Sequence record: NC_094493.1
Length of the DNA stretch: 64,000 nt
Source: a phage
Strand: one strand, 5' to 3'
Part shown: one piece after another, positions 29,634 to 36,613 of the stretch
How the letters are laid out: each line of letters opens with the position of its first letter
Numbering within the stretch: position 1 is the stretch's first letter
Made by a program: the position numbers and the translations under genes
Notes under the pieces: model-generated
Told to the model about the DNA's origin: nothing
Seen by the model: only the letters and a program-made list of their open reading frames with translations
The model's database searches: none

Positions 29634-29709
29634 ACCAGTAAAAACTTAAATATCTGTACTATAAGGATTCGTATGTTTTATGTTCGCTCTGGAACAGAGG
29701 TCAGTAACT

Positions 29710-29788
29710 GTCCGTGATACGGACACTACTGTCCGTCACGCGGACACATCTGCCCGTAATACGGACACTAACTGTCCGTGATACGGAC
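29710..29788. repeat. array of four 15-bp palindromes GTCCGT-N3/4-ACGGAC
   Basis: copies start near 29710, 29731, 29752, 29774 (21-22 bp spacing); followed by AT-rich tract with AGTAC...GTACT palindromes. Confidence 0.7.
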
Positions 29789-29929
29789 ACATAAAGAATA
29801 TAACTAAAATAACTAAATAATAAAAATAAAAGATCTAGTACTTATGGTACTAAGTACATATACTTAACTTATGTAGAATATACTAGATCCTAAGTACCAT
29901 GTTTTAAAATTATTACTTACTATAGGTAG

Positions 29930-30180
29930 TGTCGGCCCTTCATTGGCACTCGCCTACGAGGGGCGAGATGCCGGGCCTCCTTGGTGCACACAATAACAGA
30001 AGTGCATACATGCAGGTCTGTTAACATGTGTGGGAGCGAAGCGATAGCGCAGGCCAAAGGCCGAGCACTGATGTGGACCACCGACGAAAGCTTGCCAGCG
30101 CCGTAAGGAGTCGGTTGAGAGTCTCCCGCGCGAGCTTGGATGAAGTTTATGTGTGGAAACTGACAAGAAGGCCCCTAAAT
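29930..30180. ncRNA. candidate structured non-coding RNA (GC-rich island, strand undetermined)
   Basis: about 250 nt visibly GC-rich in AT-rich context, no credible ORF, local hairpins (ctcgcc/ggcgag; ccgac...gtcgg). Confidence 0.25.
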
Positions 30181-30292
30181 CGCTCCACAGCTATATAAAC
30201 TATACCAGGTAATGCAATCGCACCAGTTTGATAGAAAAGCTCGTTACAAAGTGATACAGTGAGTTTTTCTATAACTTGAAGAGGAGGCGGCT

Positions 30293-30871: not shown

Positions 30872-31070
30872 GGGGTGCTTAATGAACAATCCGGTAGCAA
30901 AGAACTGTAATAAGTTCAACAAGTCTGCAATTCACACTGACAGGAAAAAGAGCTGGTCTCCTGACATTGACGAGGAGCTTGAGAGTTACTTTGAAGACAT
31001 GGTCACCAATGCAGATGAGGTTGCGATTAAAGAATACGCAGACAGGAAGGATAAGGCCGGAATCTGTTGA
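30861..31070 (+). CDS. hypothetical small protein
   Basis: 69-aa ORF overlapping stop of upstream gene. Confidence 0.3.
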   Translation: MNAEGCLMNNPVAKNCNKFNKSAIHTDRKKSWSPDIDEELESYFEDMVTNADEVAIKEYADRKDKAGIC

Positions 31071-31146: not shown

Positions 31147-31389
31147 ATGTTTAAGGTTAAGCTCGTTTTTCGTTCCATGAATGAGGATTATTTAGAAGAT
31201 GAAGGTGAATTTCGTGCACTGGATGATGCAATAGATTTTGCCAACGACTTAGCTTGTATGAATACAGGTTATGGGCTATGTTGTTGGGATGGTGGTGTTC
31301 AGATCGGTGATAGCAAGATCTTCTACTTCTACCCTGAGCCTGATAACAAACAAATTAAGTATGTTTTATTTATTTGTGCTTTACAATGA
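31147..31389 (+). CDS. hypothetical protein
   Basis: 80-aa ORF; acidic. Confidence 0.35.
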   Translation: MFKVKLVFRSMNEDYLEDEGEFRALDDAIDFANDLACMNTGYGLCCWDGGVQIGDSKIFYFYPEPDNKQIKYVLFICALQ

Positions 31390-31429
31390 GGTTGTTTTCG
31401 TGTATCATGATGAATATCCAATTTAAAGA

Positions 31430-31680
31430 TGAATTTGATGGCTTTATCTCTGGATGCTTTGAAACAGGGTTCGGAGAAGGCTGAGTTCCCCTTAGAGGGC
31501 TTGATAGTGCACCACACTTAAAATGGTAGGGGCAGCCAGCACATGACGATGTGACCCCAGCCAACCTGTAACAAGGTCGAGCCGAAGCGCGGGTAATAGG
31601 CCTCTGGTAACCCACTTGTTGGGTCTTGCTGGTCCAGGACGCTGGACAAGTCGCAGGGAATACCACCCTGCGGCGAACTT
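31430..31680. ncRNA. candidate structured non-coding RNA (GC-rich island, strand undetermined)
   Basis: about 250 nt GC-rich, no credible ORF; perfect small hairpins cacat-GACG-atgtg, gtccag-GACG-ctggac, caggg-aatacca-ccctg. Confidence 0.3.
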
Positions 31681-31707
31681 GACAATCAGTATTTGCTATG
31701 ATAAAAT
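31679..31707 (+). promoter_or_regulatory. sigma70-type promoter
   Basis: TTGACA-17nt-TAAAAT; GGAGG RBS and ATG at 31736 follow. Confidence 0.55.
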
Positions 31708-31735
31708 CCACCTATCACGTGATAATGGAGGAAAC

Positions 31736-32074
31736 ATGGCGGATACAACTAAAAAGCGTCGCCGTAGAGGCAGACCTCTGAAAGAGGAGTCCAACGCCAT
31801 TCAGCTAGAGAAGAACATCCTTGATATGAAGGAATCTTTTATAGCGATGGTTCCAGAAGCTCACAAAGTTTTAAGAGAGCTGATGTTGGACCCGAAAACC
31901 AAACAAAATATTCGTCAAAGCATTGCAGAGTATGTTCTTGATAAGGCAGACCGAATGCAGGAAGAATATGATGAGATGTTTGGTGAAGAGGAAGAGGTGG
32001 TAGTGGAAGAGGCTGAAAAACCAGCACCTTTTATGCCATTTACTACAGAAATACAGCCTGTTAGCAATAGCTAA
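31736..32074 (+). CDS. small DNA-binding protein with AT-hook-like motif and acidic tail
   Basis: 112 aa from ATG; N-terminal KKRRRRGRPLKEE, C-terminal EEYDEMFGEEEEVVVEE. Confidence 0.4.
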   Translation: MADTTKKRRRRGRPLKEESNAIQLEKNILDMKESFIAMVPEAHKVLRELMLDPKTKQNIRQSIAEYVLDKADRMQEEYDEMFGEEEEVVVEEAEKPAPFMPFTTEIQPVSNS

Positions 32075-32170: not shown

Positions 32171-32245
32171 GCCCTGTTAGCTTAGTGGATAAAGCAGCGG
32201 CCTTCTAAGCCGTTGACACTGGTTCGAGTCCAGTACGGGGTGCCA
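32171..32245 (+). tRNA. tRNA-Arg (anticodon TCT)
   Basis: cloverleaf drawn by hand: acceptor gccctgt/acggggt, anticodon loop cttctaa, T-loop ttcgagt, encoded CCA. Confidence 0.75.
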
Positions 32246-32639: not shown

Positions 32640-32736
32640 GCTAGGTAAGCCCTTTGGCAAGGGCGAGGATTTTTAATCCTGAAAATAGACGAGGTAGTCG
32701 TTGAATACATAGGTGGTTCGATTCCATCACCTAGCA
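32640..32736 (+). tRNA. atypical tRNA-like gene (possible tRNA-Lys TTT variant, about 97 nt)
   Basis: acceptor gctaggt/acctagc, D-arm gccc...gggc, T-arm ggtgg-ttcgatt-ccatc; anticodon arm aggatttttaatcct ambiguous; about 30-nt extra arm; no CCA. Confidence 0.45.
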
Positions 32737-32743
32737 CCTTTTT

Positions 32744-34830: not shown

Positions 34831-35830
34831 AAATGATAGTGGCTTCGTGCAGAAATGCACGTCGAATAACTTCGTTAATTGCTGGAAAATCCGATTGCTA
34901 AACGGACAATCAGCAGCTATAATTACCCTTCCGAACCTGTAGTAGGGAGATGTTTGAAATGAAAAATTTAGGCTTTTTAGGCTACAATCATTATTGTGCT
35001 ACATACGATGGCAGAATTTACAGTCTGTATTCTAATAAATTCCTCCATCCTAATGTGCAGAAAAAGACTGGCTATGCTATGGTAACTTTGTGCGAGGACG
35101 GTAAAAAGTTCCAAGTGCTCGTTCACAGAGTGATTGCTATGACTTTTGTTGATAATGATAATCCCAGCGTGAAAACTCAAGTAAATCACCTTGATGGCAA
35201 TAAGTTGAATAACGCCGCATGGAACCTTGAGTGGACAACACCTGAGGAAAACACACATCATGCTCATGAAATGGGACTTAAAAAGGACTATGTCAATAAA
35301 TACAGGTCCCTAGATGATGCCACTGCTCTTGAAATATGTAGACTGTTAGAGCAAGGTGCAAGGGTAAAAGACATTTGTGAAATGTTTGGTGTCAATCAAC
35401 CACTTGTAAGTGGTATAAAGAATGGCTCAGTATACCCAGATATTTCTAAAGAGTTTAACTTTAGAAAAGTGCCAACCTCTAATAGGATAAGTGAGCACAA
35501 GATAATAGGTATCTGCGAGGATCTTAGTGATAGGGTTTTGTGTGTAAATAAAATAGCTAAGAAGTGGGGCGTAAGTTTTAGTGTTGTTAAAGGAATAAAA
35601 GACCGTAAGACTTACACCTATATTTCAAACAATTACGATTGGTAATGTAGTTCAACGACTATCCCGAGAGGGAGTAGGGCGCAAGCTTATGGCGCTCGAA
35701 AAGCGAAGCACCCTGAGATGGGTGGTGATATAGTCTACTCTGCATGGTAACATGCAGCGGCACGTAATGGTGCGGAGGGTGGTGTTGCGACCACCTTTGA
35801 ATATAAGGATTCGATAATCCTGTCTGCTTG
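34831..35830 (+). mobile_element. group I intron with embedded HNH homing endonuclease gene
   Basis: ordered core elements P aattgctggaaaa (about 34877), Q aatcagcagc (about 34908), R gttcaacgacta (about 35649), S gatatagtc (about 35726); GACTA/TAGTC form P7; P9 hairpins downstream; boundaries +/-3 nt. Confidence 0.8.
34959..35645 (+). CDS. HNH homing endonuclease (intron-encoded)
   Basis: 228 aa from second ATG (RBS GGGAGA); HNH motif VNHLDGNKLNNAAWNLEWTTPEENTHH; ORF sits between Q and R. Confidence 0.85.
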   Translation: MKNLGFLGYNHYCATYDGRIYSLYSNKFLHPNVQKKTGYAMVTLCEDGKKFQVLVHRVIAMTFVDNDNPSVKTQVNHLDGNKLNNAAWNLEWTTPEENTHHAHEMGLKKDYVNKYRSLDDATALEICRLLEQGARVKDICEMFGVNQPLVSGIKNGSVYPDISKEFNFRKVPTSNRISEHKIIGICEDLSDRVLCVNKIAKKWGVSFSVVKGIKDRKTYTYISNNYDW

Positions 35831-36613
35831 AGAGACAACCCAGAATACCTTGCTTTCCTCGAAGGTCTACCAGAGCTGGAAAAAGCTCAGCTTCTCCATG
35901 GTAACTGGTTTGCAAAGCCTGAGGGTGCAAACTATTTTCAAAGATCTTTCCTTCGTGATGCCGATAGAGTACCTCTTGGGTCAGTATCTTGCAGGGCATG
36001 GGATAAGGCAGGAACCGAGAGAACTTCCGGTAATAAATTTCCTGACTTTACTGCCAGTATTAAGGTAAGTAAAGATAGCGACGGCTTTTATTACCTGTCC
36101 GGTGATTATTGTCCTGAGAACGTGGATGACGGGAGGTATTCCACAGGTCTGGAAGGCAAGTTCTGTAAAAAGGCTGGTGAACGAGATGTGATCATCAGGA
36201 AACAGGCGCAGTTCGATGGTGATGATTGCATAATCGTCTTCTCTGTGGACCCAGGGCAGGCAGGTAAGAGTGAGTTCTTAACCTCCTCCAGATCCTTGCT
36301 TGCCGAAGGGTTCAGGGTTGAAGAAGACCCAATGCCTTCCAACAAGTCTAAACTGACAAGGTTCTCACCTTTTGCCAATCTTGCCCAACAAGGAATGGTG
36401 AGGATTGTAAAATCCAGTTTCCATCCTGATACTCTGGAAGCATTTCTGACTGAACTTGAAAAATTCAACGGGGAAAGATCAACATTTAACAGAAAAGACG
36501 ACTGGGCCGACTGTGTAGCTTCTGCGATTAATTTCCTAGAGAAAGAGGAGGTAGCACTTCCTTGTGTGATTCCATCAATCTCATCACCTTCTATGTTCAA
36601 GCGTTTTATCTAA
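35831..36613 (+). CDS. terminase large subunit, exon 2 (nuclease domain)
   Basis: frame open without start/RBS; LLHGNW, VDPGQAGKSE and KDDWADCV motifs of terminase RNase H-like nuclease. Confidence 0.8.
   Translation, partial: RDNPEYLAFLEGLPELEKAQLLHGNWFAKPEGANYFQRSFLRDADRVPLGSVSCRAWDKAGTERTSGNKFPDFTASIKVSKDSDGFYYLSGDYCPENVDDGRYSTGLEGKFCKKAGERDVIIRKQAQFDGDDCIIVFSVDPGQAGKSEFLTSSRSLLAEGFRVEEDPMPSNKSKLTRFSPFANLAQQGMVRIVKSSFHPDTLEAFLTELEKFNGERSTFNRKDDWADCVASAINFLEKEEVALPCVIPSISSPSMFKRFI

What the first reader, a model, noticed from the sequence alone, without database searches (positions are those of the whole stretch)
31430..31680. Second GC-rich non-coding island with GACG-tetraloop hairpins just upstream of a consensus promoter
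Seen: about 250 nt without credible ORF between gene 31147..31389 and the TTGACA-17-TAAAAT promoter at 31679; contains perfect hairpins cacat-GACG-atgtg and gtccag-GACG-ctggac (same loop), caggg-aatacca-ccctg and accca-cttgt-tgggt. It shares the short motif gagc(c)gaagcg with the first island. Inference: a structured RNA or 3'-UTR element; the repeated GACG loops suggest a protein- or RNA-recognition motif.
Basis: seen in the sequence. Interest (0 to 1): 0.55.

Follow-up and report, generated by a model that had tools for sequence, protein, structure and literature searches.

The report
Unrecognised structured RNA shared by coliphages
The flagged non-coding island is real. It is the rV5-type copy of a strongly conserved folded RNA, absent from the RNA-family database, that also occurs in phage T4 and at least four other phage groups, usually beside phage tRNA genes, and its function is unknown.

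Summary
The window is an rV5-like Vequintavirus.

The important part is not the GACG hairpins but the stretch between them, 31557-31604. This about 45-nt core recurs almost unchanged in hundreds of T4-like phage records and in Phapecoctavirus, N4-like Pylasvirus, 44-47-kb coliphages and divergent Vequintavirinae. Their flanking DNA is otherwise unrelated.

The core is best modelled as a three-way junction. Its closing helix covaries perfectly: two pairs, four pair types, 0 of 35 sequences unpaired. The two inner hairpins are invariant, but a divergent second copy shows compensatory changes in both. The peripheral helices, including the GACG hairpins, also change compensatorily.

Outside T4-likes the motif lies within 1.2 kb of tRNA genes on the same strand (17 of 17 loci that hold tRNA genes). 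In T4-likes it always precedes gene vs.8, and T4's RefSeq record annotates it as coding sequence.

There is no Rfam 15 match and no copy in 5,426 E. coli genomes. The GACG loops are conserved only within Vequintavirinae. The motif shared with island 1 is chance.

My best guess is a stable RNA of the tRNA operon that binds a conserved partner. A cis-acting leader and a ribozyme remain open.

The parts
31380..31408 (+). Candidate sigma-70 promoter (TTTACA-17-TATCAT) that could start the transcript carrying the RNA. Read-through from the promoter at 31067 is the alternative.
   Evidence: Consensus scan, 10 of 12 positions. The sequence is conserved in six rV5-like phages. The syntenic relative L137 instead has a strong TTGACA-17-TATACT promoter about 10 nt before the RNA. 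Function is not shown.
31488..31530 (+). 5' domain specific to Vequintavirinae. It holds hairpin CCC-CUUAGA-GGG (31488-31499) and hairpin AGUG-CACCA-CACU (31506-31518).
   Evidence: It is 91% identical between the window and L137, whereas the flanking coding genes are about 70% identical. It was not found in the loci fetched from other phage groups. The helices are invariant, so covariation cannot test them.
31529..31558 (+). Stem A (GGGG 31529-31532 with CCCC 31555-31558) enclosing hairpin B (CACAU-GACG-AUGUG, 31540-31553).
   Evidence: Compensatory changes in other lineages. Stem A reads GGAAC/GUUCC (L137), GGGAA/UUCCC (T4), GGGAG/CUCCC (Bp7), AAAGG/CCUUU, AAAGCU/AGCUUU and AAAGA/UCUUU (T4-like clade 2). 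Hairpin B reads CUACG/CGUAG, CCUCAU/AUGAGG, UGAAUG/CAUUCA and UGAGUG/CACUCA.
31535..31539 (+). 5' strand of a proposed pseudoknot (GCCAG) that pairs with CUGGU at 31604-31608.
   Evidence: The same topology is seen elsewhere: L137 GUGAGGG/CCCUUAC, L181 UGAGG/CCUCA, EcoPhCCP1-type CUCCGG/CCGGAG. In 46-kb phages, Pylasvirus and Phapecoctavirus, which lack stem A, it becomes an ordinary 8-bp outer stem GUUGUGAC/GUCACAAC with compensatory variants. It is inferred for the window, where CCAGCA 31536-31541 with UGCUGG 31627-31632 is an alternative partner.
31557..31604 (+). Conserved core, modelled as a three-way junction. Closing helix GCC 31560-31562 with GGC 31599-31601. H1 is ACCU-GUAACA-AGGU (31564-31577). 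Junction CGA (31578-31580). H2 is GCC-GAA-G(C)GC (31581-31590). Junction GGGUAAUA (31591-31598).
   Evidence: Covariance model R1 scores 56.2 bits, E = 1.9e-16, and this is the only strong hit in 64 kb. blastn links it to about 460 T4-like records. Closing-helix pairs read CG31/GC4 and CG24/UA5/GC4/AU2 with none unpaired in 35 distinct sequences. A divergent second copy in L160 gives compensatory support for H1 (GCCU/AGGC) and H2 (GUC-CGC-GAC).
31604..31608 (+). 3' strand of the proposed pseudoknot (CUGGU).
   Evidence: CUGG is kept in bov25_3 although the neighbouring bases differ. See the 5' strand entry at 31535-31539.
31610..31650 (+). 3' domain specific to Vequintavirinae. It holds hairpin ACCCA-CUUGU-UGGGU (31610-31624) and hairpin GUCCAG-GACG-CUGGAC (31632-31647, extended by CUU/AAG).
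   Evidence: L137, L177 and L181 carry CCC(C)-AUAGA-GGG and CUGG-GGACGGA-CCAG at the same places: different stems, with GACG kept in the loop.
31652..31672 (+). Hairpin CGCAGGG-AAUACCA-CCCUGCG, present only in the rV5-type lineage, directly before the next promoter.
   Evidence: A perfect 7-bp stem. It is absent from L137, L177 and L181. No U-run follows, and the scan does not call it a terminator. Its role is unknown; it could be a 3'-end or processing structure.
31679..31707 (+). Promoter TTGACA-17-TAAAAT of the downstream ORF (31737-32074). It marks the 3' limit of the island.
   Evidence: Matches 11 of 12 consensus positions with an extended -10 TG. A TTGACA promoter-like site also follows the motif directly in L137 (scanned) and in EcoPhCCP1 (read by eye in the sequence).

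Best explanation
Window 31488-31650 (extending to 31672 in this lineage) encodes, on the + strand, the Vequintavirus member of a family of phage structured RNAs that matches no family in Rfam 15.

Shown:
- An about 45-nt core (31557-31604) folds as a small three-way junction. A covarying closing helix holds hairpin H1 (ACCU-GUARNA-AGGU) and hairpin H2 (GCC-NNN-G(N)GC). These are joined by the near-invariant junction strands CRR and GGUAAN.
- A variable hairpin lies directly 5' of the core. A helix or pseudoknot ties the 5' flank to the sequence 3' of the core.
- The same core occurs in T4-like phages, Phapecoctavirus, Pylasvirus, 44-47-kb coliphages and divergent Vequintavirinae.
- The hosts named in the deposited records are overwhelmingly Enterobacterales; a few records name Campylobacter (marked unverified) or Pseudomonas.

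Inferred:
- The RNA is transcribed together with, or just ahead of, the phage tRNA operon, either from the weak promoter at 31380-31408 or by read-through.
- It accumulates as a discrete stable small RNA.
- It acts by presenting its invariant hexaloop and junction to a conserved partner. That partner is most likely a host protein or RNP of the translation or tRNA-metabolism apparatus, or a tRNA-directed defence nuclease.
- In T4-likes the same module has been captured in the leader of vs.8.
- The GACG hairpins are lineage-specific scaffolding or secondary contact sites.

I put the probability that this is a genuine conserved structured RNA at about 0.9. The confidence of 0.4 given for this explanation refers to the trans-acting stable-RNA mechanism.
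For: Homology:
- blastn finds the core in 584-979 phage records across unrelated families.
- Pattern scans and model R1 find exactly one copy per locus, 63 hits in 62 loci, and one copy in the window.

Structure:
- The closing helix covaries with four pair types and no unpaired cell. The covariation score is 0.163 against 0.050 +/- 0.011 in shuffles, reached by 0 of 500.
- The L160 second copy compensates in both H1 and H2.
- The outer stem and hairpin B compensate.
- G-U pairs occur only on the + strand.

Selection:
- Between the window and L137 the flanking genes are about 70% identical. The 5' domain is 91% and the core 84% identical. The helices are about 49% identical but still pair.

Stable-RNA reading:
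- All 17 non-T4 loci that contain tRNA genes have the motif within about 40-1200 nt of them on the same strand.
- In Phapecoctavirus DE16 the motif lies between tRNA-Thr and tRNA-Gly.
- In L187 it starts 39 nt after a tRNA.
- In three lineages an 8-bp stem closes the 5' and 3' ends.
- L137 has its own strong promoter about 10 nt upstream.
- A promoter follows the motif directly in three lineages, so most transcripts of the downstream gene would not carry it.

Other points:
- Non-coding.
- No host copy in 5,426 E. coli genomes.
Against: - There are no expression data. Nothing shows a discrete or stable RNA, and no terminator follows the motif.
- Most instances by number are in T4-likes. There the motif is not near tRNA genes and always precedes vs.8, which looks cis-regulatory.
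- In EcoPhCCP1-type phages it follows the endolysin gene, with no tRNA in the fetched locus.
- The partner is unknown, and no mimicry of a host RNA was found.
- H1 and H2 are nearly invariant, so their pairing rests on one divergent copy.
- Thermodynamic stability is ordinary.
Confidence: 0.4

Rival explanations
1. A cis-acting leader. The motif would be an aptamer or protein- or RNA-polymerase-binding element, such as a riboswitch, a translational operator or a put-like antiterminator. It would control expression of what lies downstream: vs.8 in T4-likes, and ORF 31737-32074 plus the tRNA operon here.
For: - In Straboviridae the motif is always immediately 5' of vs.8, whatever the upstream gene. 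The linkage holds even where Vs.8 has diverged to about 37% amino-acid identity.
- The architecture is aptamer-like: invariant junctions, covarying helices and a pseudoknot.
- T4-likes carry a further conserved hairpin, GCCANGGAAUGGCC, between the motif and the vs.8 start.
- In L137 the motif lies directly after a promoter.
- In EcoPhCCP1 an intrinsic terminator follows about 95 nt downstream (read by eye).
Against: - Strong promoters lie between the motif and the next gene in the window, L137 and EcoPhCCP1.
- In DE16 the motif sits between tRNA genes, and in Pylasvirus about 0.7-1.2 kb after the last tRNA with no ORF close by.
- No alternative terminator or anti-terminator pairing is conserved across lineages.
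- Vs.8 is absent from the window and was found only in T4-like records.
Confidence: 0.25
2. A self-cleaving ribozyme or dedicated processing module. It would cut polycistronic transcripts and so separate the tRNA or stable-RNA units and the neighbouring mRNAs.
For: - The motif appears in varied genomic contexts in virulent phages, often beside tRNA genes. From my own knowledge, not checked here, this is typical of hammerhead, twister, hatchet, pistol and HDV-like 'theta' ribozymes.
- It is compact, with about 30 invariant nucleotides concentrated in junctions.
- Its nested-pseudoknot topology (A5'-PK5'-B-A3'-core-PK3') resembles the strand order of HDV-like ribozymes.
Against: - No Rfam ribozyme model matches, even at E <= 10 on a 320-nt slice.
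- The HDV-defining features are absent on inspection: P1.1, a 3-bp P3 with a 7-8-nt L3, and a variable P4.
- No conserved candidate cleavage dinucleotide was identified.
- The strict linkage to vs.8 in T4-likes is unusual for a ribozyme.
Confidence: 0.12
3. Ordinary 3'-UTR or intergenic hairpins, acting as a terminator, RNase barrier or stabiliser of the upstream gene's mRNA, with no sequence-specific function.
For: The island follows ORF 31147-31389 and precedes a promoter. The lineage-specific hairpin 31652-31672 could be a 3'-end structure. Overall folding energy is not exceptional.
Against: A generic hairpin would not keep about 30 bases identical across phage families that share no other DNA. 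It would also not be more conserved than the flanking genes. No U-tract terminator is present.
Confidence: 0.03
4. Protein-coding sequence: either the N-terminus of a longer protein, as T4's RefSeq record annotates for Vs.8, or the 113-aa minus-strand ORF 31370-31711.
For: T4 NC_000866 starts vs.8 at an ATG inside hairpin B, so the motif becomes codons 1-37. Some rV5-like records annotate small ORFs in the island.
Against: - The variable positions are not at third codon positions.
- A 1-nt indel inside the core distinguishes the window from its close relatives.
- The reading frames are not conserved.
- Other T4-like records start vs.8 at MRTFLTG, 179 aa.
- In the window the frame that runs through the core has no start codon before 31616.
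Confidence: 0.02
5. A DNA-level site, such as a regulator or recombinase binding site or a replication or packaging signal, rather than an RNA.
For: It lies directly upstream of sigma-70 promoters in three lineages. In T4-likes the motif plus vs.8 behaves like a mobile cassette.
Against: Helices covary, and several pairs are G-U on the + strand, which would be A-C on the other strand. Orientation is always that of the neighbouring genes and tRNAs, 17 of 17.
Confidence: 0.03

Closest known systems
T4 species 1 and species 2 stable RNAs (rnaC, rnaD)
   Same: They are small structured RNAs of unknown function, encoded in or next to a phage tRNA cluster and co-oriented with it (T4 annotation). This is the same genomic niche as the motif in Vequintavirinae, Phapecoctavirus, Pylasvirus and 46-kb phages.
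   Different: There is no sequence or model similarity. R1 hits only the denV-vs.8 spacer in the T4 locus that also holds rnaC and rnaD (sequences read). In T4 itself the new motif lies 6 kb from the tRNA cluster. The new motif crosses phage families.
GOLLD and ROOL RNAs
   Same: They are phage and prophage structured RNAs of unknown function, 'often near tRNA islands', with pseudoknots and no known protein partner (10.1101/2024.12.08.627333).
   Different: They are 600-800 nt long, occur mainly in Gram-positive and other lineages, and form RNA-only cages. The present RNA has a 45-nt core inside a 110-190-nt molecule, in phages whose named hosts are almost all enterobacteria. No Rfam GOLLD or ROOL match was found.
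Riboswitch aptamers built on a three-way junction with a pseudoknot or loop contact (for example purine, TPP)
   Same: Invariant junction nucleotides, covarying helices, and a position in a 5' leader in the largest group, the T4-likes upstream of vs.8.
   Different: No Rfam riboswitch model matches. Many copies have no downstream ORF or are separated from it by a promoter. No ligand or expression platform was identified.
HDV-like ribozymes, including the tRNA-adjacent 'theta' ribozymes of gut phages (recalled from my own knowledge, Kienbeck et al. 2024; not checked here)
   Same: Small size, location in phages, sometimes directly 3' of a tRNA (L187), and a nested-pseudoknot strand order.
   Different: P1.1, a short P3 with L3, and a catalytic C in J4/2 are not present. 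The position equivalent to P4 is the most conserved part here but the most variable part in HDV-like ribozymes. No Rfam match.
Guanidine-II (mini-ykkC) riboswitch
   Same: Two small hairpins that carry the same tetraloop.
   Different: The loops are GACG, not ACGR, and they lie 85 nt apart around a conserved core. They are not conserved outside Vequintavirinae. No RF01068 match at E <= 10.

Membership tests
Any Rfam 15 family (4227 covariance models) | A score at or above the family's gathering threshold, or at least a suggestive E-value | tested here: not met
   Only tRNAs reach the gathering threshold, in the window and in 9 related loci. At E <= 10 the short slices of the window and of T4 give only chance snoRNA-type hits outside the core.
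tRNA or tRNA-like RNA | Cloverleaf with acceptor, D, anticodon and T arms | tested here: not met
   ARAGORN and the Rfam tRNA model find the neighbouring tRNAs but nothing at 31488-31680 or at the motif in any locus. The loop context CUGUAA resembles the tRNA-Tyr anticodon loop only superficially, because the stem register does not fit.
T4 species 1/2 stable RNAs | Homology to rnaC or rnaD | tested here: not met
   Model R1 gives one hit in T4 locus L149, at the denV-vs.8 spacer and not at rnaC or rnaD. The sequences are dissimilar on reading.
T4 species 1/2 stable RNAs | Accumulates as a discrete, stable, processed RNA | not testable with these tools
   This needs Northern blots or RNA-seq of infected cells.
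Guanidine-II riboswitch | Two hairpins with ACGR tetraloops, upstream of guanidine-related genes | tested here: not met
   The loops are GACG. The gene context is unrelated. No RF01068 hit.
HDV-like ribozyme | P1/P1.1/P2/P3/P4 double pseudoknot with a 3-bp P3, an L3 that forms P1.1, and a catalytic C in J4/2 | tested here: not met
   The strand order is similar. However, hairpin B has 5-7 bp with a 4-6-nt loop that cannot form P1.1. No HDV-family Rfam hit.
Self-cleaving ribozyme of any class | Site-specific self-scission | not testable with these tools
   This needs an in vitro transcription and cleavage assay.
Intrinsic terminator | G+C-rich hairpin followed by a U-run | tested here: not met
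   The scan finds no terminator-like site in 31400-31700.
Riboswitch or cis-regulatory leader | Consistent position in the 5' UTR of a functionally coherent gene set | tested here: inconclusive
   Met in Straboviridae, where the motif is always 5' of vs.8. Not met elsewhere: the motif lies in tRNA clusters, or a promoter intervenes.
GOLLD/ROOL | Match to the family model; size of 500-800 nt | tested here: not met
   No Rfam hit. The RNA is at most about 190 nt.

The most novel reading that the evidence does not exclude
The motif would be a new functional RNA class carried by virulent enterobacterial phages, including T4 itself. It could be a new aptamer or riboswitch, a new self-cleaving ribozyme, or, most intriguingly, an RNA decoy or inhibitor aimed at a conserved host enzyme or a tRNA-directed anti-phage nuclease. 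It would have spread horizontally among unrelated phage families as a 45-nt module, and in T4 it would have been hidden for decades inside a mis-annotated start of gene vs.8.
Probability: 0.3. Interest if true: 0.85.

Novelty: new variant of a known kind. Interest (0 to 1): 0.68.

Why it matters
If the family is truly undescribed, it is a new and very strongly constrained RNA module present in about a thousand sequenced coliphage records, including the model phage T4 and the rV5-like, phAPEC8-like and N4-like groups.

The constraint is unusual. About 30 bases stay unchanged while the surrounding helices and neighbouring genes diverge. Together with the absence of any copy in complete E. coli genomes (chromosomes, their prophages and plasmids), this points to a specific molecular interaction that virulent phages need.

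T4 genetics makes the question directly testable. It would also correct the annotation of vs.8.

The finding adds to the long-standing puzzle of what the non-tRNA stable RNAs in phage tRNA clusters do, such as T4 species 1 and 2, GOLLD and ROOL.

Tried and rejected
- **Bacterial genome scan.** I scanned genome contigs with an 18-position pattern (16 specified bases). All listed hits were chance matches in G+C-rich coding DNA and none had the upstream half of the motif. Absence is shown only for E. coli complete genomes.
- **Vs.8 as an obligate protein partner.** tblastn finds no homologue in the window and finds Vs.8 only in T4-like records. Pfam, PHROGs, PADLOC and PDB say only that it is a P-loop ATPase with weak similarity to terminases.
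- **Homology between island 1 and island 2.** None was found.
- **Resemblance to the 16S rRNA 530 loop.** The shared 8-mer GCGGUAAU (the 16S sequence is recalled from memory) is about what chance predicts for a 35-nt core against 1.5 kb. Dropped.
- **Mimicry of the tRNA-Tyr anticodon loop.** The loop context CUGUAA matches, but the stem register does not fit and the tRNA models are negative. Kept only as a weak lead.
- **Twister, HDV and pistol ribozymes.** The look-alikes I recalled from memory got no model support.
- **A universal pseudoknot between the H1 loop (GUAA) and a 3' UUAC/UAC.** The partner is present in T4-likes and L137 but absent in the window, in 46-kb phages and in EcoPhCCP1. 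Not general.
- **The alternative helix CUAACCU/AGGUUAG.** RNAalifold predicts it in the 46-kb group. It conflicts with the covarying closing helix and is lineage-specific, so it may be a switch or a tertiary contact. Unresolved.
- **Literature searches.** Searches by sequence words and by topic found no description. The library lacks most subscription journals.
- **Full-length Vequintavirinae pair counts.** The MAFFT alignment (A4) is off by one column in stem A. I therefore checked the peripheral helices with a script instead of the pair-counting tool.
Full report
**What the window is.** The region is 99-100% identical to rV5-like phages (genus Vequintavirus). Examples are Escherichia phages nom and Gotham, and a set of unannotated 'Campylobacter phage' records, at least one of which (A147) is marked UNVERIFIED. 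The island lies between a small ORF (31147-31389, phrog_5676, unknown function) and a strong promoter at 31679. That promoter drives a 112-aa ORF (31737-32074, phrog_3330, unknown function). A cluster of seven tRNA genes starts at 32171.

**Check of the observation.** The promoter and the short motif shared with island 1 are present too. G+C rises to 0.54 against about 0.38 in the flanks.

The island is non-coding:
- The + strand has only ORFs of 30-36 aa.
- The 113-aa minus-strand ORF falls apart in bov25_3 and in the divergent relative L137.
- Phages 96-98% identical to the window differ by 1-nt and 3-nt indels inside the island.

Taken alone the hairpins are only modestly unusual. There are 5 counted against 1.56 +/- 1.44 in shuffles, with 43 of 1000 shuffles reaching 5. 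The folding energy has z = -1.28.

**The decisive lead.** A sensitive blastn of 31390-31740 found the 118 expected Vequintavirus records. It also found about 460 T4-like phages that match only query positions 168-211, which is window 31557-31600. In T4 this stretch lies between denV and vs.8.

The flanks differ in sequence but not in shape. T4 has CCUCAU-gauuau-AUGAGG enclosed by GGGAA/UUCCC. The window has CACAU-gacg-AUGUG enclosed by GGGG/CCCC.

Pattern scans of IMG/VR and of metagenomes, and further blastn searches, added more carriers:
- 46-kb contigs.
- Klebsiella N4-like Pylasvirus (Pylas, KpCHEMY26).
- Phapecoctavirus (DE16, phiWec188).
- 44-kb phages of the EcoPhCCP1 type.
- Three lone contigs (L158, L170, L187).
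- A divergent Vequintavirinae lineage (L137, L177, L180, L181) that is syntenic with the window.

A query of the 46-kb type matches 979 phage records.

**Structure of the core.** There are 35 distinct core sequences. 23 of 48 alignment columns are invariant. The consensus is NN-N-ACCUGUARNAAGGUC-RR-GCC-NNN-G-N-GCGG-UAA-N-N-NN.

The two base pairs next to the core covary without a single exception: CG 31/GC 4, and CG 24/UA 5/GC 4/AU 2. A third pair shows five pair types. The covariation score is 0.163 against 0.050 +/- 0.011 in shuffles, reached by 0 of 500.

The two inner hairpins are H1 (ACCU-GUARNA-AGGU) and H2 (GCC-NNN-G(N)GC). Both are invariant, so covariation cannot test them. However, one T4-like contig (L160) carries a second, divergent tandem copy scoring 35 bits. 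In that copy H1 is GCCU-GUAAUA-AGGC and H2 is GUC-CGC-GAC. These are compensatory changes in both hairpins.

The positions that vary freely are exactly the H2 triloop, its bulge, position 5 of the H1 loop and the base after UAA. Its resemblance to island 1 is therefore chance. Island 1 has no relatives outside Vequintavirus, and the core model does not find it.

**Peripheral structure.** A hairpin always sits directly 5' of the closing helix. Its sequence and loop are lineage-specific, and it changes compensatorily: GAGUG/CACUC against GAAUG/CAUUC (GC 4, AU 3). Further variants are listed.

In 46-kb phages, Pylasvirus and Phapecoctavirus an 8-bp stem closes the whole element. It reads GUUGUGAC/GUCACAAC, with the variants ...GAA/UUC... 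and G-U pairs.

In Vequintavirinae, T4-likes and the EcoPhCCP1 type an extra stem A is present. In Vequintavirinae and the EcoPhCCP1 type the equivalent long-range pairing becomes a pseudoknot:
- L137: GUGAGGG/CCCUUAC.
- L181: UGAGG/CCUCA.
- EcoPhCCP1: CUCCGG/CCGGAG.
- Window, proposed: GCCAG 31535-31539 with CUGGU 31604-31608.

I could not identify the partner in T4.

G-U pairs on the + strand, and a constant orientation relative to neighbouring genes, show that the RNA strand is the + strand.

**Selection.** Between the window and L137 the flanking genes are 70% identical at the DNA level, and the proteins 66-72%. The Vequintavirinae-specific 5' domain is 91% identical and the core 84%, with differences only at the free positions. 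The stem A and hairpin B region is 49% identical but still pairs. This is the signature of a functional structured RNA.

**The GACG loops.** Within Vequintavirinae both GACG-containing loops are kept while their stems change. They are probably meaningful in this lineage. They are absent from the equivalent hairpin in every other lineage, so they are not part of the shared functional centre.

**Genomic context.** Outside Straboviridae, all 17 fetched loci that contain tRNA genes have the motif on the same strand and close by:
- 567 nt upstream of the tRNA cluster in the window.
- 516 nt upstream in L137.
- About 200-355 nt upstream in the 46-kb phages.
- Between tRNA-Thr and tRNA-Gly in Phapecoctavirus DE16.
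- 0.7-1.2 kb after the last tRNA in Pylasvirus.
- 168 nt after a tRNA in L158, and 39 nt after one in L187.

L137 has its own strong promoter about 10 nt before the RNA. The window has only a weaker candidate at 31380-31408. No terminator follows the motif. Instead a TTGACA promoter abuts it in the window, L137 and EcoPhCCP1.

In Straboviridae the picture differs. There are no tRNA genes nearby. The motif is always directly 5' of vs.8 whatever lies upstream, even where Vs.8 is only about 37% identical. Vs.8 is a P-loop ATPase of unknown function, found only in T4-like records and absent from the window.

T4's RefSeq record begins vs.8 at an ATG inside hairpin B, so the RNA is annotated as the first 37 codons. 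The variation pattern and the frame-shifting indel argue against this.

No copy exists in 5,426 complete E. coli genomes.

**Comparison with known RNAs.** No Rfam 15 family matches, even at E <= 10 on short slices of the window and of T4. ARAGORN sees no tRNA-like fold. T4's species 1 and 2 RNAs are unrelated.

The nearest analogues by niche are those T4 stable RNAs and the much larger GOLLD and ROOL RNAs. The latter are phage RNAs of unknown function 'often near tRNA islands' (10.1101/2024.12.08.627333). Full-text searches by sequence words and by topic found no description. That library is incomplete, so prior description cannot be excluded.

**Mechanism.**

Shown: a conserved, + strand, non-coding, structured RNA module with a three-way-junction core, horizontally shared among virulent phages whose named hosts are almost all enterobacteria.

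Inferred: how it works. I rank the possibilities as follows.
1. A stable small RNA of the tRNA operon that acts in trans by binding a conserved partner through the invariant GUARNA loop and GGUAA junction (about 0.4).
2. A cis-acting leader: a riboswitch, operator or antiterminator (about 0.25). The T4-like context is its strongest support.
3. A self-cleaving or processing element (about 0.12).

Generic hairpins, coding sequence and a DNA site are each unlikely (0.03 or less).

None of these can be settled with sequence tools. The experiments that can settle them are listed under decisive next steps.

**Verdict.** The interpretation 'structured RNA' is right, but for a different and more interesting reason than the GACG hairpins. 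The finding is a new RNA family, a new variant of the known kind 'phage tRNA-cluster-associated structured RNA of unknown function', and it reaches into T4.

Noticed in passing
window 29900-30260: The 'first' G+C-rich island (G+C 0.53) is conserved at 90-100% in 118 Vequintavirus records. Unlike island 2 it has no match in any other phage group. It has no Rfam hit above noise (rli43 at 20.7 bits against a gathering score of 100).
   Followed up: partly
window 29709-29795: Four direct repeats of a unit that is itself an inverted repeat (cuGUCCGUgauACGGACac) lie just upstream of island 1 and are followed by a very A+T-rich stretch. This looks like an operator or iteron array.
   Followed up: no
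window 35646-35827: A gap of about 185 nt, richer in G+C, separates ORF 34950-35645 from ORF 35828-36613. From its sequence the second ORF looks to me like the nuclease half of a large terminase (not searched against any library). The gene may be split, or it may carry a small intron-like insert. No Rfam hit. A weak chance hit of the core model (14.9 bits) lies in the coding part at 35867-35911.
   Followed up: no
window 32640-32738: A 97-99-nt tRNA-like gene that ARAGORN reads with a 4-base anticodon 'atcc' and no amino-acid assignment. Rfam tRNA scores it only 35.5 bits. The Gotham record annotates the equivalent gene as tRNA-Lys-TTT. It may carry an insertion or intron, or be an unusual tRNA.
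   Followed up: no
L149 (T4 NC_000866) 64253-64912; L002 1991-2641: T4's RefSeq record starts vs.8 at an ATG inside the RNA motif, giving 219 aa. Other T4-like records and the conservation pattern place the start at MRTFLTG, giving 179 aa. This is probably a mis-annotated start.
   Followed up: partly
L005 5100-5980 (minus strand); L007, L008, L136, L141, L144: In 46-kb phages, Pylasvirus and Phapecoctavirus the motif sits in 0.8-2.5-kb non-coding arrays next to tRNA genes. The arrays are built of repeated long hairpins, CACAACAGGUAAGAGCA...UGCUCUUAUCGUUGUG, with variable inserts. The 3' arm resembles boxA (UGCUCUUUAACAA, recalled from memory). These may be further unannotated RNAs or processing sites.
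   Followed up: no
L160 5093-5250 (minus strand): A 177-kb T4-like contig carries two tandem copies of the motif upstream of vs.8. The second copy is divergent (35 bits) and has compensatory changes in both inner hairpins.
   Followed up: yes
T4-like loci, between the motif and the vs.8 start (e.g. L002 2063-2080): A second element specific to T4-likes, GCCANGGAAUGGCC(C), is conserved across Escherichia, Klebsiella and Yersinia T4-likes just upstream of the vs.8 ribosome-binding site. It forms a hairpin with a GGA-containing loop, which from my own knowledge resembles a CsrA site.
   Followed up: no
records MG065635-MG065682: About 18 GenBank records named 'Campylobacter phage' have no annotation, and the one fetched (A147) is marked UNVERIFIED. 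They are 96-100% identical to E. coli rV5-like phages over this region. The host label is probably wrong or reflects contamination.
   Followed up: no
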